Origin: a virus
Direction: 5' to 3' (one strand)
Virus genome (UHGV): UHGV-0036853
Length of the DNA: 64,000 nt
The first letter of the stretch is position 1. The number at the start of each line of letters is the position of its first letter. Shown here piece after piece: positions 1-6,000 of the stretch. Position numbers: made by a program.

Positions 1-3000
1 TCAAAGAAGAAGTGTTCGGAATCACGCATTACCGGCGTAGCACCAGAAACTACCGATTTCGGCTCGATCAGTTCAGTAGGGCTGTATGTCGCGCCGCAGA
101 CTTCACAGTTATCGCCGTATTGATCCGGCGCTTTACATTTCGGGCATGTGCCTTTCACAAAACGGTCCGGCAGGAACATGCCTTTTTCCGGGTCGTACAG
201 CTGAGAGATGGTGCGATTTTTAATAAAACCGTTCTCTTTCAGGCGAGTATAGATAAGCTCAGACAACTGACGGTTCTCTTCGCTGTGCGTCGAGTGATAG
301 TTGTCATAGCTGATGTTAAAGCCTGCGAAATCAGTCTGGTGTTCCTGACTCATTTCGCCAATCATCTGCTCCGGTGTGATACCAAGCTGCTGTGCTTTCA
401 GCATGATCGGCGTACCGTGGGCATCGTCGGCACAGATGAAATTAACCTCGTGGCCGCGCATTCGCTGGTAACGAACCCAGACATCAGCCTGGATGTGCTC
501 CAGCATATGGCCGAGGTGGATTGAGCCGTTAGCGTACGGCAGCGCGCACGTCACCAGAATTTTCTTCGCGACTTGGGTCATAGTAGGCATTACTTCTTTG
601 TAGTGAAAAGGGGCTTGATAGTAACAAAATGGCCTTATGTCTGCCATGTGATAACAGCATTTCTCATAAATGATTAAATGTCGTAGCTGGAGTACACTAC
701 AAGGCGACAATTGCGCAAATTAAAATAAAGGAGACGGGATGAGCGAGTCCAAATCGCCGGATGCCCTGAGAGCAATGGTAGCCGGTACGCTGGCTAATTT
801 TCAGCACCCAACCCTGAAACACAACCTGACTACGCTTAAAGCGTTACACCATGTTGCGTTGATGGATGACACACTGCATGTCGAACTAATCATGCCTTTC
901 GTGTGGAATAAGCCTTTTGAAGACCTGAAAGAGCAATGTAGTGGTGATCTGCTCCGTATCACTGGCGCAAAGGCTATTGACTGGAAGCTGTCGTACAACA
1001 TTGCCACGCTTAAGCGCGTCAAAAACCAACCAGGCATTAATGGCGTTAAGAATATTATCGCCGTAAGCTCAGGCAAGGGCGGTGTAGGCAAATCGTCCAC
1101 AGCAGTAAACTTGGCACTGGCGTTGGCTGCTGAAGGTGCGAAAGTTGGTATTTTGGATGCCGATATCTACGGTCCATCAATTCCAACCATGCTGGGCGCG
1201 GAAAACCAACGTCCAACCTCACCGGACGGTACTCACATGGCACCTATCATGTCTCATGGCCTGGCAACCAACTCTATTGGTTATCTGGTCACCGACGACA
1301 ATGCAATGGTGTGGCGTGGACCGATGGCCAGCAAGGCGCTGATGCAGATGTTGCAGGAAACACTGTGGCCTGATCTGGACTATCTCGTTCTCGATATGCC
1401 GCCGGGCACTGGTGATATTCAATTGACGCTGGCGCAGAACATTCCTGTAACTGGTGCGGTTGTGGTAACTACGCCGCAGGACATCGCGTTGATCGATGCG
1501 AAAAAAGGCATTGTGATGTTCGAAAAAGTCGAAGTGCCGGTACTGGGTATCGTCGAAAACATGAGTGTGCATATTTGCAGTAACTGCGGTCATCACGAGC
1601 CAATTTTTGGCACCGGTGGCGCACAGAAGCTGGCCGAGAAATACAACACGCAGTTGTTAGGCCAAATGCCACTTCATATCTCTCTTCGTGAAGATCTGGA
1701 TAACGGAACACCAACCGTTATTAGTCGTCCAGATAGCGAATTTACGGCTATTTATCGTGACCTCGCAGATCGCGTTGCTGCCCAAATGTATTGGCAAGGT
1801 GAAGTAATACCTGGCGAAATCGCATTCCGCGCAGTGTGATAAAAAGGTGGTGCAATGCACCACCTAAACAGTTCTCCTACATCACAGGACAATCATCAAA
1901 CTCGCCACTTCTTGCGTCGTTGATAATGTGAGTGATCACACCAAACACGGCATTGCTGCCCGTGCATCCATCATCATCCTTTGGCAATGCTTCCTTCTTA
2001 CCAGTTCTTAAATCCTCCAGATGCTGACGTGGATACTTCCGGTATCTTTTTACGCGATATTCCCCATCCAGAGCACATACAAGAAGAGATCCATCAACAG
2101 GAGTGAGTGAGGAATCGACCACCAGCAATGCACCCTGCAATATTCCCTCACGATGATGGCTATCAGCTGCCCTCAAGAAGTAGGTCGCTGAAGGATGTCT
2201 AATTATCTGCTGATCAAGAGAAATACGGCTCTCAGCATAATCCGCCGCAGGAGAAGGGAAGCCCATAGCGTTTTCACCTCAAAATACTGTTTATTCATAC
2301 AGTATACATTAAAGAAGCACCTTTGGTGCAAACGCGTTATGTACATCAACCACCGCTGATGATTTTGTGCGCTTTGCTACTATTCATCACCAACGGATCA
2401 GCGTAACCTCGTTGCCAATCAGTTAATAAGGAATTAGCTATGCCTGCCCGCATTCCTCTCGATCCTGTATTGCCCAAAAATTTTGACAGCACTCCTAACG
2501 AGAAACGCTCCAAAGCCCAGTTGGACGCCTGGTGGGACCATCCCTATGGAGTTACAGAACCTGACGGGAAAATTGTTGTTTATTGTCTGAATGGTGGCGC
2601 GTGGGACCGCCCATCCGTGCTTGGTTTAGTAGATAACTATGATGAAGCCTGTGAACTTGCCGAAAGACAGCAGGCAAGCTGGGTAAAAACACGGTCTGAA
2701 CCGACATTCATGTTTTCAAAAGAACCACCATTTATACTGGCGAGGATGCCGCAGCGACCGGATCATCAACAAGAAATTGTTGCTGAATTTTCCTCAAGGG
2801 ATGAGATGAATCTCTTCTCATTAATGCAGGAAGAAAGAGAGCACGTCGAGGTGTCTCCAACTCTCGATCATAACCGGATGAACCTGGCCCAACTCGCCCG
2901 GTACAGCAAAGAATTGGAGATGTCTATTGCCCGGCTTGAAAACGAAAAAGCCGCTATCCAAGCCCAGCATGAAGTTATTCTGGACCGGATTAGAGAAATG

Positions 3001-6000
3001 CAAAACAATAATAGGGGATTTTGAATGGCTAAGATCGAGTACCATCGCGATCGGGGTAATTACCTGGAAATATACGATCATGAATCTCTTAACGATATCA
3101 ACGATGCGTTATATGAATACTGTGAAAAAACGAGCATCACAGATGCACCTGATGCATTTGTCGAGCTACCGGTATACCTCCGCGACATCTATGCAATACG
3201 AACGCCGCCCATACCGGTAATTCACATTGGCTATGTCCGCCTGTCTCTCGAAGAAGATGCAGGTCGTTACATCGTGCGCCACTATACATTGGACAGAAAA
3301 GAGCTTCCCAATGAATGGAACGCGAGTAATTACTATAACGGTGAATATGGCTTAAAATCCGCTAATAATTTACGCTCATAATCTATACAGCTATGTATAA
3401 CAACAAGCCTATGAGCTGCCAACAACGTGATTTTCTCAAATAAGAAAACGTAGAAAACAAATTGTTTAAGGCCACTAGTTGTGGCCTTAATGGAGAGGGG
3501 ATGCTTATTGGCTATGGCTAAAAATCAAATTAGACACTTCATGTGGTTGTAGCTCGTCAAGATCCGGTGCCACAAAACCTTTTCCGAAAGACTTCACAAG
3601 TGATTCGCCAGCCGCATCATTGTCACCTATTACACGAAAGTCATACGGCAGCATTGCCAGTTGACGACGTAATCCTGCTGAGAAAGTCGAACCTAACAGC
3701 GCCCACGAATTTCCGCCCGCGTTGTGCACTGCTGCACTTTTAAAAATCGACTCAGTTATCCATATCGGTCCATCTTTTAAAGGAAGATAGGTTCCCCATA
3801 GTAGCTGTCTGCCGTGCGCTCGTGTGAAATACCGGGCCATCTTCGGATTGCTGTGCTGCTTAGGAGCGCCTGGTCTGTATGTCTGATACCCGGCCAACAT
3901 CCCATCAAACCTGTATAGAGGGAATGTAACAACTCCTTCGCTTTCATCGATCCACTGTCTATATGGGTGTATATCATGGCGGTAGTTACGAGTCAGCAAA
4001 TGAGCTTCCAGCTTTCCAAATTTGGTCATAACTTCGCATCCCTCATAACACTTCCCATTTATCACCATATTTCTCCATAGCTCTTAGCCAGTAAACATGG
4101 CCACTAGGCATAGTGATGTGAGGCTCGCCAAACTCTTCTCCATGCACATCAAAGATGTCCCCAACAGAGAATTGGGGGATTTCTGTGCCGTTTTCACCTA
4201 TATGCGTAATTCGTATACGTTTCGGTTGAGATTCGCCCCCTTTAAGCGAGTTGTTCACGGCTCTTGCAATCTTCTCCCGCAATTGCTGCGTTCCGTGATA
4301 CGTAACCGCAATATCCCGCAACTCGTTCACCAGTTCTCGAATTTGGTGATCTTTAAGCTCATTATTTGAGTGATTGGTAACAACTCTGGTTAATTCACCC
4401 TTGTCTTTTGCTCTTACGTATGCAGCTCTTGTGCATTCGACCCATGTATTACCGCCTACATTAACTTCGTAGATTAGGCTGGACTTATCTGTCAATTCGG
4501 AACAAATACGGGCCGTGGTCTGGCAACTAGAGCATTCGCAGTTATCGCGGAAACCGTGATCTGCCGGTCGAGAAAGAGGTTTAACTTTTTCATCCAACTT
4601 CATCACAGCATCGTGATAAGCGTTCCAGCCGTCATCTTTACCAAGTTGATAAATCTCTGAAGGCTCCATGTAGTCTATATCGCAACCATCTTCATCTGAT
4701 CTATCTGGTCGTTTCCCTGGTAATCGCTCATAAAAACGATTTCTGTCTCGACGTTCGGCTCTCAGTGCTAACGCAAGAAGTTGCTCAAGCGAGGTATTCG
4801 CACCAGCAATAATTTCATTGAGAATATCTTCTGTGAGATCTTTCGCTACCGTGCTCATTTATCTCTCTCAGTATGTTGCGATGGCGTAAATTTGACGACA
4901 TCAAATATTTTGGATGGCATCAACTTTATCCGCGAGCTTAGTTCGGCTCTTCTCTGTAATGCGGTTAATAATGTTTTCGTTCTGACGCCTTCGTGTATCC
5001 TCATCCCTGGCACAAGAACTACGTCGCAGGGAAGATGCTCAGGTGACAAATCATTTTGGGCATCACCAATAAGTTGTGTAATCTCTCTTTCAAGCCGACC
5101 GCCTAACTCCGTTTTAGTGCAATGTTCTGACCAATCGCCAGCCTCAAGAAGCGCGAGAATGTTTAAAATATCGTCCACAAGAGCAGTCGTGTCGCCGATG
5201 ACAGGAAAGGGATCGGCATAAAGCGCGACAATATCCCCAATCGTTTTTTGTACCGCATCCTCAATATCTAAATATGCCGGAGTCGAAACAATTGCCGGAT
5301 CGGCCAAATCATCTTTCATTACAAACGCAGATGGCTTTTGTTCAGACAAGGCCAGTAACACATTCGCCATACGATGCGCGATGTGCTTTTTCCCGTACTC
5401 CTTTGTTGCCTGTGTTAGTTCTTCTTTTGTTATTTCAATCATCGTAGGGCATCCTCCACGCCCACCAATCTGTGCTGCTCTAGGTAGTTCATTGCCTTAT
5501 CTGGTAAGTCACAGTCCGGCTTCGCTTTCTTCAATTGGCTGACTAACCGTTTAACCCACATTGCTAACTCTGTAACTAGGTTGTCGCATTCTGGTGTGTT
5601 ATTAGCATTCTTCTGAAGCATAGCAGCACGACAGGCGTTCCAGCCTCTCACCTCTGCAATAGCTGCAACCGCATCAACCGCATATCTGCTAAGAGGGTTC
5701 GGCATTGGTTTTTCTTCCGGTACTACTGGAACGGGTGGAGCGGCGTAGACCTCAATAATTCCATTATCAATAGGCCATTCTCCATCCTTGAGGTAGTCAC
5801 TTGTACCGTCAACTTGCTGTTCTGCAATGTGGAATGCACCTATTGGTTTTGCCTCAAGCGAGGACAGTGCAATTCGTGCCAGTTTTAGATCTCGTTCAAC
5901 CATCTCAAGAACAACTTTGCAGTCCGCACCTTCTTTGCTAACACGTCCTTTCAAGTTTTTCAGATAACTAACGCTTTCGCGTGCATGGGAGATTAACTGT

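What the first reader, a model, noticed from the sequence alone, without database searches (positions are those of the whole stretch)
2440..3381. Uncharacterised translationally coupled two-gene plus-strand operon at the element edge
Two ORFs of 194 and 118 aa with abutting stop and start, divergent from the SOS-regulated gene and convergent with the backbone, ending at a conserved hairpin. I recognise no domain in either. Edge-located coupled pairs are often toxin-antitoxin or anti-defence or defence modules.
Basis: inference. Interest (0 to 1): 0.5.

Follow-up and report, generated by a model that had tools for sequence, protein, structure and literature searches.

The report
P1/P7 lxr–upf93.6 accessory gene pair
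The two genes are real and conserved, but they are already-catalogued genes of unknown function from phage-plasmids P1/P7 (lxr/upf94.2 and upf93.6), sitting inside a circular SSU5-like phage-plasmid, and because each occurs widely without the other they are unlikely to be a toxin-antitoxin pair.

Summary
Observation confirmed. ORF1 (2440-3024, 194 aa) and ORF2 (3025-3381, 118 aa) exist with TGA|ATG abutting. Both are under purifying selection (dN/dS 0.13-0.20). They lie divergent from humD across a perfect LexA box.

Interpretation mostly not supported.
- There is no element edge. The window is a circular ~110-kb SSU5-like phage-plasmid, and metG-apbC is plasmid cargo.
- The pair is ~92% identical to phage P7 humD/upf94.2/upf93.6. 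ORF1 is the homologue of P1 Lxr ("LexA regulated function"). The PHROG families are 6164 and 5797, both of unknown function.
- The two genes are not an obligate pair. Of 70 fetched loci with an ORF1 relative and 13 with an ORF2 relative, only 4 carry both, all P1/P7-type. P1 has lxr alone.
- The abutting junction is specific to the P7 lineage.

No Pfam, NCBIfam, PADLOC, PDB or fold match was found for either protein.

ORF1 is a strongly conserved acidic "Lxr domain" plus a lineage-specific coiled coil. The domain has at least 800 clusters across alpha-, beta- and gamma-proteobacterial plasmids and ICEs, near traG/ardC and sometimes umuC. Distant ORF2 relatives sit after ssb in an IncN/W-like plasmid.

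Best reading (moderate confidence): two independent, non-essential accessory proteins that bind host factors, possibly SOS-timed. Function remains unknown. Interest is modest.

The parts
1877..2266 (-). humD (UmuD'-like, S24 peptidase family), the divergent neighbour
   Evidence: NCBIfam HumD equivalog 3.8e-65; PHROG 811; ~91% identical to P1/P7 humD at the DNA level
2285..2304 (.). LexA box TACTGTTTATTCATACAGTA in the humD/ORF1 intergenic region
   Evidence: Pattern match. The same site is annotated as a LexA binding site in P1 and P7 records. It lies 20 bp from the humD ATG and 137-153 bp from the ORF1 ATG.
2428..2432 (+). Shine-Dalgarno-like AAGGA for ORF1
   Evidence: Read from the sequence
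2440..3024 (+). ORF1, 194 aa: Lxr / Upf94.2 homologue
   Evidence: PHROG 6164 full length, 1e-128; 93% aa identity to the P7-type protein and 89% to P1 Lxr-type; dN/dS 0.13-0.20
2440..2835 (+). ORF1 N-terminal alpha/beta 'Lxr domain' (aa 1-132), acidic, with invariant WW, CLNGGxWDR and QRPD motifs
   Evidence: AF2 pLDDT 82-96 over aa 1-120, falling to 72 at 121-130; invariant columns; occurs standalone as 130-147 aa proteins in at least 800 clusters; pI 4.9
2884..3015 (+). ORF1 C-terminal long helix / coiled coil (aa 149-192), present only in P1-like lineages
2682..2713 (+). Protospacer inside ORF1 with a 32/32 match to the iap-proximal spacer of the E. coli type I-E CRISPR array
3013..3018 (+). 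Shine-Dalgarno-like AGGGGA for ORF2, inside the last codons of ORF1
   Evidence: Read from the sequence
3025..3381 (+). ORF2, 118 aa: Upf93.6 homologue, a small acidic protein
   Evidence: PHROG 5797 full length, 4.5e-73; homologues; dN/dS 0.20 against P7; pI 5.0
3466..3490 (-). Hairpin with a 10-bp stem; terminator-like on the minus strand (toprim operon), no T-tract on the plus strand
   Evidence: It lies in the segment retained in PhiR41_1, which lacks ORF1-ORF2.
3505..4068 (-). Convergent toprim-domain (primase-fragment) gene
   Evidence: PHROG 849 DNA primase 6.4e-54; annotated as toprim domain-containing in pAVS0968-B

Best explanation
The locus is a copy of the phage P7 upf94.2-upf93.6 gene pair (upf94.2 is the homologue of P1 lxr). 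It is a non-essential accessory operon that sits next to humD. It appears to have moved, together with humD and part of a toprim gene, between P1/P7-type and SSU5-type phage-plasmids.

The two products are separate, independently mobile proteins rather than parts of one machine:
- ORF1 is a highly conserved acidic 'Lxr domain' fused to a lineage-specific coiled coil, which presumably drives oligomerisation.
- ORF2 is a small acidic beta-rich protein.

Relatives of both families lie in the transfer, establishment or accessory regions of conjugative plasmids, ICEs and phage-plasmids. They are found near ssb, ardC and traG, and sometimes near umuC/umuD.

I infer that each acts as a stoichiometric binder or inhibitor of a conserved host factor. 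The target would belong to the DNA-damage response (RecA/Pol V axis) or to a host defence. I also infer that in this arrangement they may be switched on with humD when LexA is cleaved.

Shown: gene reality, identity to P7/P1 genes, independence of the two families, their distribution and contexts, acidity, and the lack of any catalytic or DNA-binding signature.

Inferred: LexA control of ORF1-ORF2, oligomerisation, and the binder/inhibitor mechanism and its target.
For: - Identity with P7 upf94.2/upf93.6 and P1 lxr.
- Purifying selection.
- P1 lxr did not reduce plaque formation when knocked down by CRISPRi, and is classed non-essential (PMC10695390).
- hot-lxr-humD is a variable region of P1-like elements (PMC9603915).
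- Indel polymorphism: PhiR41_1 keeps only a 26-bp remnant of the block.
- Independence: only 4 of 79 loci holding either family hold both. ORF2 relatives follow unrelated 320-, 136-, 65- and ~100-aa genes.
- Context of ORF2 relatives: DUF932-ssb-TrfB/ArdK-like-ORF2 in an IncN/W-like conjugative plasmid, in the gene block next to stbABC and an SprT-like (ArdC-metalloprotease-like) gene. In R388 the equivalent sector lies in the leading region (PMC7213743).
- Context of Lxr-domain relatives: TraG in 22 loci, ArdC in 13 and UmuC in 8 of 55 loci. The domain is present in 903 PLSDB plasmids, 564 of them conjugative.
- Both families are uniformly acidic, pI 4.5-5.6 with two exceptions.
- Neither has a Pfam, NCBIfam, PADLOC or fold match.
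- A LexA box lies in the shared control region.
Against: - No direct functional evidence exists for either protein.
- No sigma-70 promoter for ORF1 was found near the LexA box.
- The box is positioned for humD, 20 bp from its ATG. In L022 the same geometry serves a different divergent gene, so LexA control of ORF1-ORF2 is unproven.
- The invariant Cys, His, Asp and Arg residues of the Lxr domain could mean it is an enzyme rather than a binder.
- The leading-region argument rests on distant relatives (37-60% identity), not on the window itself.
- Acidity is weak evidence.
Confidence: 0.45

Rival explanations
1. Lxr-family proteins are accessory factors of the mobile Pol V/UmuD' module. ORF1, perhaps with ORF2, would modulate HumD-UmuC translesion synthesis or RecA*-dependent steps, in the manner of DinI or PsiB.
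For: An Lxr-domain gene lies next to UmuD/UmuC homologues in three separate settings. It is divergent from humD in P1, P7 and the window. It is convergent and 46 bp from umuC in four sphingomonad loci, and about 4 kb from umuDC in four enterobacterial (Salmonella/Serratia/Kluyvera) loci. It shares a LexA-box region with humD. In Klebsiella SSU5-like elements it sits in a recA-gp32-exonuclease-Pol III cluster.
Against: Most loci (47 of 55) have no umuC within 4.5 kb. There is no homology to DinI, PsiB or any known RecA or Pol V partner. MGE cargo genes often cluster without a functional link.
Confidence: 0.15
2. A type II toxin-antitoxin (addiction) pair: one product is toxic and the co-translated partner neutralises it.
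Against: Each gene occurs widely without the other. The abutting junction is not conserved. There are no toxin or antitoxin domains. The block is cleanly lost in PhiR41_1. P1/P7 already carry phd-doc one gene away. P1 lxr knock-down did not affect plaque formation (lytic growth).
Confidence: 0.07
3. A two-gene anti-phage defence or superinfection-exclusion module carried in a variable hotspot of phage-plasmids.
For: It lies in a region described as highly variable in P1-like elements. It shows presence/absence polymorphism. Defence genes neighbour some relatives: HEPN-Toprim in Klebsiella elements and an R-M system in an IncHI1B/FIB plasmid.
Against: There is no meaningful PADLOC hit and no nuclease, ATPase, NTase or other effector domain. 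The two genes are not linked outside one lineage. Small acidic proteins are more typical of inhibitors than of defence effectors.
Confidence: 0.1
4. ORF1 is what PGAP calls it, a DNA-binding protein (a coiled-coil regulator or partition-type protein like KfrA), and ORF2 is an unrelated passenger.
For: The RefSeq/PGAP name 'DNA-binding protein' is used across the family. ORF1 has a long C-terminal coiled coil. In Pseudomonas/Xanthomonas plasmids the standalone domain overlaps the start of a serine resolvase gene.
Against: No HTH, RHH or other DNA-binding domain was detected. The protein and its whole family are acidic (pI about 4.6-5.3, two members 6.1-6.7). No NCBIfam model underlies the name. 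The coiled coil is absent from most family members.
Confidence: 0.1

Closest known systems
Phage P7 upf94.2 and upf93.6 (AF503408)
   Same: Same two genes, in the same order, with the same TGA|ATG junction, the same divergent humD and the same LexA box. The whole block is ~91% identical at the DNA level (window 1878-3641).
   Different: The host replicon differs: an SSU5-like phage-plasmid here and P1-type in P7. In P7 the downstream toprim gene is only a remnant interrupted by IS903.
Phage P1 Lxr ('LexA regulated function', P1_gp102)
   Same: Homologue of ORF1 (about 89% aa identity) in the same position relative to humD and the LexA box.
   Different: P1 has no ORF2; hot (theta homologue) follows on the opposite strand. 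The last ~17 codons of lxr differ, because homology stops at window 2974.
Establishment/leading-region genes of conjugative plasmids (R388 ssb-ardK-orf12/orf14-ardC sector)
   Same: Distant ORF2 relatives sit directly after ssb and an ArdK/TrfB-like regulator in the gene block adjoining stbABC and the relaxase/T4CP genes. Lxr-domain relatives sit near ardC and traG. These are small genes of unknown function (PMC7213743 and PMC3937220).
   Different: The window copy is on a phage-plasmid beside humD, not in a conjugative leading region. No homology to a characterised establishment protein was found. I could not check whether R388 orf12 or orf14 belong to these families.
PsiB / DinI-type small acidic SOS modulators
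   Same: Resemblance by analogy only: small acidic MGE or SOS-regulon proteins encoded near ssb or under LexA control. This rests on my own knowledge of PsiB and DinI.
   Different: No sequence or fold similarity was detected. Binding to RecA was not tested.
phd-doc of P1/P7 (a true type II TA located two genes away)
   Same: A two-gene, tightly spaced operon on the same elements.
   Different: phd-doc is among the extremely conserved P1 genes. ORF1 and ORF2 occur separately and are frequently absent.

Membership tests
P1 Lxr / P7 Upf94.2 family (PHROG 6164) | Full-length sequence homology | tested here: met
   PHROG 6164 covers 1-194 of 194, E 1e-128; 89-93% identity to P1/P7-type proteins
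P1 Lxr / P7 Upf94.2 family (PHROG 6164) | Divergent from humD with a LexA box in the intergenic region | tested here: met
P7 Upf93.6 family (PHROG 5797) | Full-length sequence homology and a position immediately downstream of the lxr homologue | tested here: met
   PHROG 5797 covers 1-118 of 118, E 4.5e-73; the junction is the same TGA|ATG arrangement as in P7, with only point differences in the flanking bases
Type II toxin-antitoxin module | The two partners co-occur as a conserved pair | tested here: not met
   Only 4 of 79 loci carrying either family carry both. P1 has lxr alone. ORF2 relatives have unrelated upstream genes.
Type II toxin-antitoxin module | Recognisable toxin fold and antitoxin DNA-binding domain | tested here: not met
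Type II toxin-antitoxin module | Toxicity of one product that is neutralised by the other | not testable with these tools
   Requires expression experiments
Catalogued anti-phage defence systems (PADLOC-DB 2.0) | Match to a defence-protein HMM | tested here: not met
   Only a coiled-coil-level hit to LeoB, E 0.01, for ORF1, and none for ORF2
SOS (LexA) regulon member | Consensus LexA box in the control region | tested here: met
   TACTGTTTATTCATACAGTA at 2285-2304. CTGT-N8-ACAG has only 2 matches in 64 kb.
SOS (LexA) regulon member | The box overlaps the gene's own promoter | tested here: inconclusive
   No promoter-like site for ORF1 was found. The box is 137-153 bp upstream of ORF1 and 20 bp from humD.
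SOS (LexA) regulon member | Induction by DNA damage, lost in lexA(Ind-) | not testable with these tools
   Requires RNA-seq or reporter assays
Plasmid establishment / anti-defence proteins of leading regions | Encoded in the leading/establishment region next to ssb, ardC and similar genes | tested here: inconclusive
   Met for distant relatives. The window copy is on a phage-plasmid beside humD.
Plasmid establishment / anti-defence proteins of leading regions | Demonstrated inhibition of a host defence or of SOS | not testable with these tools
   Requires assays
DNA-binding protein (PGAP label for ORF1) | Known DNA-binding domain or basic surface | tested here: not met
   No such domain. pI is 5.1 and family pI is mostly 4.6-5.3, with two members at 6.1-6.7.
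BspA-type leucine-rich repeat (LRR_5), considered for ORF2 | Significant match of a single repeat unit, robust to the choice of profile | tested here: not met
   The best single-domain score is 18 bits or less. Significance comes only from summing 4-24 repeats. There are zero hits with the 22-sequence family profile.

The most novel reading that the evidence does not exclude
The 'Lxr domain' would be a new, Pfam-less protein class with no detectable structural relative. Mobile elements across alpha-, beta- and gamma-Proteobacteria would use it to neutralise a highly conserved host factor, for example the RecA*/Pol V axis or a widespread defence. The P7-type operon would pair it with a second, unrelated inhibitor (the Upf93.6 family) as an SOS-triggered counter-defence or damage-response cassette.
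Probability: 0.25. Interest if true: 0.65.

Novelty: already known. Interest (0 to 1): 0.33.

Why it matters
As a sequence feature this is ordinary. It is a copy of genes annotated in the P1 and P7 GenBank records (AF234172, AF503408) and catalogued in PHROGs.

What could matter is the gap it exposes:
- The Lxr domain is present in about 900 PLSDB plasmids and at least 800 protein clusters.
- It is 47-68% identical across three classes of Proteobacteria.
- It has no Pfam model, no structural relative and no known function.
- It recurrently lies beside conjugation, ArdC and UmuDC genes.

If it proves to be an inhibitor of a conserved host pathway, that would add a new player to plasmid and phage-plasmid establishment. 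It would also finally explain a P1 gene that has been named but unexplained since the P1 and P7 genome records were deposited.

Tried and rejected
1. Pfam, NCBIfam and PADLOC scans of both proteins gave nothing above noise.
2. PDB sequence and profile searches gave nothing.
4. The LRR_5 resemblance of ORF2 from the exhaustive profile search was rejected as a repeat-summation artefact.
5. I first thought the LexA box tracked lxr, because L022 keeps the box with a non-HumD neighbour. I withdrew this: the box keeps its 20-bp geometry to the divergent gene, so it says nothing about lxr.
6. I looked for a conserved partner for either family. None was found.
7. Rfam found no RNA family in 1800-3700.
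8. Literature searches found no functional study of lxr, upf94.2 or upf93.6. The P1 genome paper and the HumD paper are not held.
9. The R388 record could not be checked for homologues because it is not in the collection.
10. A QLDxWW stretch in ORF1 superficially resembles a beta-clamp-binding motif. I did not pursue it, because it lies in a confidently folded helix of the model.

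
Full report
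**1. What is in the sequence**

ORF1 (2440-3024, 194 aa) and ORF2 (3025-3381, 118 aa) are on the + strand. The TGA of ORF1 (3022-3024) directly abuts the ATG of ORF2. Each ORF has its own Shine-Dalgarno-like motif: AAGGA at 2428-2432 and AGGGGA at 3013-3018, the latter inside the last codons of ORF1.

Upstream on the minus strand is humD (1877-2266; NCBIfam HumD equivalog 3.8e-65). The 173-bp intergenic region holds a perfect LexA box, TACTGTTTATTCATACAGTA, at 2285-2304.

Downstream, a minus-strand toprim gene (3505-4068) converges on ORF2. A 10-bp-stem hairpin lies at 3466-3490.

Both ORFs are genuine genes. They give full-length matches to PHROG 6164 (1e-128) and PHROG 5797 (4.5e-73). They have many homologues. 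Their dN/dS is 0.13-0.20 against P7, P1 and a more distant element.

**2. What element this is**

That is not so.
- The first 20 kb and the last 24 kb of the window match circular 108-115 kb plasmids and phages at 97-98%. These include pAVS0968-B, PhiR41_1, Cyrano and CMS-2020a, which are relatives of Salmonella phage SSU5.
- These elements carry metG and apbC themselves.
- 5,722 of the 6,192 matching E. coli records, which include the chromosomes, match at only 80-90%.
- Phage-plasmid-borne metG is a known phenomenon (PMC12452169).

There is therefore no edge. The pair sits inside a circular phage-plasmid.

**3. Identity of the pair**

Window 1878-3641 is 91% identical to phage P7 across humD, the LexA box, upf94.2, upf93.6 and a toprim remnant. 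ORF1 is also the homologue of P1 Lxr, annotated 'LexA regulated function'. P1 homology stops at window 2974. P1 has no ORF2, and hot follows on the other strand.

In complete E. coli genomes:
- ORF2 DNA occurs in 113 genomes, 112 of them on plasmids. 107 are at P7-like 90-95% identity and 6 are at 95-99%.
- ORF1 at 80% coverage or more occurs in 182 records.

The sister phage-plasmid PhiR41_1 lacks the block. Window 2331-3449 is replaced there by 38 bp, which includes a 26-bp remnant of the 3' end of ORF1. This points to a deletion.

The hairpin at 3466-3490 lies in the part retained by PhiR41_1 and has a T-rich tail only on the minus strand. It is primarily the toprim operon's terminator.

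**4. Are the two genes one system?**

- 70 loci carry an ORF1 relative and 13 carry an ORF2 relative.
- Only 4 carry both, all of P1/P7 type.

ORF2 relatives elsewhere follow unrelated genes:
- A 320-aa protein in a widespread Salmonella plasmid.
- A 136-aa protein.
- A run of small genes after higBA.
- A TrfB/ArdK-like regulator after ssb in ~34-kb MOBF/MPF_T plasmids.

ORF1 relatives elsewhere are standalone 130-147 aa proteins without the coiled coil.

The abutting stop and start is not conserved. L021 and L022 have 15- and 9-nt spacers and a P1-type Lxr C-terminus.

P1 lxr did not reduce plaque formation when knocked down by CRISPRi, and is classed non-essential (PMC10695390). [quoted passage not shown]

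These results argue strongly against an obligate two-component module such as a toxin-antitoxin pair. P1 and P7 also already carry phd-doc one gene beyond humD.

**5. What the proteins look like**

ORF1:
- The AF2 model has mean pLDDT 84.5. It shows an alpha/beta domain (aa 1-132) followed by a long helix (149-192).
- The domain has striking invariants: W31 W32 (D33 H34 P35), C49-L-N-G-G-x-W-D-R57 and Q105-R-P-D108.
- A profile search found at least 800 protein clusters, and none of the 120 listed has a Pfam domain.

ORF2:
- The family is about 25 groups of 100-123 aa proteins with IG[YWF]V, H[YFL]TL, W and FYxGxYG motifs.
- Hits to BspA-type LRR proteins were an artefact of summing weak repeats.

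Both families are almost uniformly acidic. The ORF2 family has pI 4.5-5.6. The Lxr family is mostly 4.6-5.3, with two members at 6.1-6.7. This fits poorly with the PGAP label 'DNA-binding protein'. That label is not backed by any NCBIfam model.

**6. Context of relatives**

The Lxr domain occurs in 903 PLSDB plasmids, of which 564 are conjugative. It also occurs in alpha-, beta- and gamma-proteobacterial genomes at 46-68% identity.

Neighbour clustering over 55 loci gave:
- The TraG/VirD4 coupling protein in 22 loci.
- ArdC in 13 loci.
- TraD and WGR proteins.
- A UmuC homologue in 8 loci. In four sphingomonads it is convergent at 46 bp. In four enterobacterial (Salmonella/Serratia/Kluyvera) loci it is about 4 kb away.

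In a broad-host-range ~47-kb plasmid the gene overlaps the start of a resolvase gene. In Klebsiella SSU5-like elements it sits between a recA-gp32-exonuclease cluster and Pol III alpha.

The distant ORF2 relative in the IncN/W-like plasmid occupies the DUF932-ssb-regulator-ORF2 position, in the block adjoining stbABC and an SprT-like (ArdC-metalloprotease-like) gene. This resembles R388's establishment sector, which lies in the leading region (PMC7213743 and PMC3937220).

Both families therefore belong to the accessory and establishment repertoire of mobile elements.

**7. Regulation**

The LexA box is real and annotated in P1 and P7. Its geometry serves humD, at 20 bp from that gene's ATG. 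It lies 137-153 bp upstream of ORF1, and no promoter-like site for ORF1 was found.

In L022 the box keeps the same 20-bp geometry to a different divergent gene, and L021 has no box. SOS control of ORF1-ORF2, implied by the name Lxr, is an inference and not a result.

**8. Best explanation and rivals**

I favour, at a confidence of about 0.45, two independent non-essential accessory proteins that bind and modulate conserved host factors. The target would be the DNA-damage response or a host defence. They would be co-transcribed here and possibly timed by LexA.

Rivals:
- A specific Pol V/RecA-modulating role: about 0.15. This is supported by the recurrent UmuD/UmuC neighbourhood and weakened by its absence from most loci.
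- A defence or exclusion module: about 0.1.
- A true DNA-binding protein: about 0.1.
- A toxin-antitoxin pair: about 0.07.

None can be settled without experiments.

**9. Novelty and verdict**

The feature is an already catalogued pair of 'known unknowns'. It is not a new kind of system on present evidence, and it is not at an element edge.

The residual interest lies in the widespread Lxr domain, which has no Pfam model and no structural relative. I score interest at 0.33.

Noticed in passing
window 2682-2713 (inside ORF1); L025 2290-2562: A 32/32 match to the iap-proximal (trailer-end) spacer of the E. coli type I-E CRISPR array. 1,006 E. coli records match at 99% or more, and the six I inspected are 33-nt hits in chromosomal CRISPR arrays. 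In the window and in P7 the 5' flank is CTG, which is not the canonical AAG/ATG PAM. P1 and pAVS0968-B have ATG but carry 4-6 protospacer mismatches. This looks like alternative escape routes.
   Followed up: partly
window 1-1839: metG (partial, minus strand) and apbC (739-1839) are cargo of the SSU5-like phage-plasmid and are not chromosomal. Nearly all E. coli records match this region at only 80-90%. Phage-plasmid-borne metG has been linked to antimicrobial survival in Shigella sonnei (cited in PMC12452169).
   Followed up: partly
window 2331-3449 versus L023 (PhiR41_1) 3531-3570: The sister phage-plasmid PhiR41_1 has lost the whole ORF1-ORF2 block. It keeps a 26-bp remnant of the 3' end of ORF1 (window 2989-3014) between humD and the toprim gene.
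   Followed up: yes
window 47230-47249 and 46100-47203 (minus strand): A second consensus LexA box (CACTGTATAAGTAAACAGTA) lies 27 bp upstream of a tyrosine recombinase gene (Pfam Phage_integrase). This suggests an SOS-controlled recombinase on the phage-plasmid. A glutaredoxin-like gene lies next to it.
   Followed up: partly
window 3505-3711; L001 (P7) 4760-5894: Homology with P7 runs past ORF2 into the 3' end of the toprim gene. In P7 this gene is only a remnant interrupted by IS903. The exchanged segment between P1/P7-type and SSU5-type phage-plasmids is therefore humD-lxr-upf93.6-toprim'.
   Followed up: partly
L004-L007 (cluster of P0073): One 90%-identity cluster of the standalone Lxr-domain protein spans Pseudomonas, Sphingobium, Tardiphaga, Brucella, Burkholderia, Salmonella and E. 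coli. Where I examined the encoding contigs (P0073 itself), the gene lies on ~46-64 kb plasmid-sized contigs in a 66 aa-135 aa-resolvase arrangement beside Fic/VbhA and RepA.
   Followed up: no
L016-L020 (Salmonella plasmid contigs): A 54%-identical ORF2 relative is very common in Salmonella, on more than 1000 contigs. It follows an 81-aa and a 320-aa gene with no Pfam match, next to ccdAB and an integrase. No Lxr homologue is present.
   Followed up: partly
window 3025-3381 (ORF2 profile): The 8-sequence ORF2 profile pulled in large BspA-type LRR_5 repeat proteins at E down to 3e-10. No single repeat scores above 18 bits, and the hits vanish with a 22-sequence profile. This is a caution about repeat-summed E-values.
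   Followed up: yes
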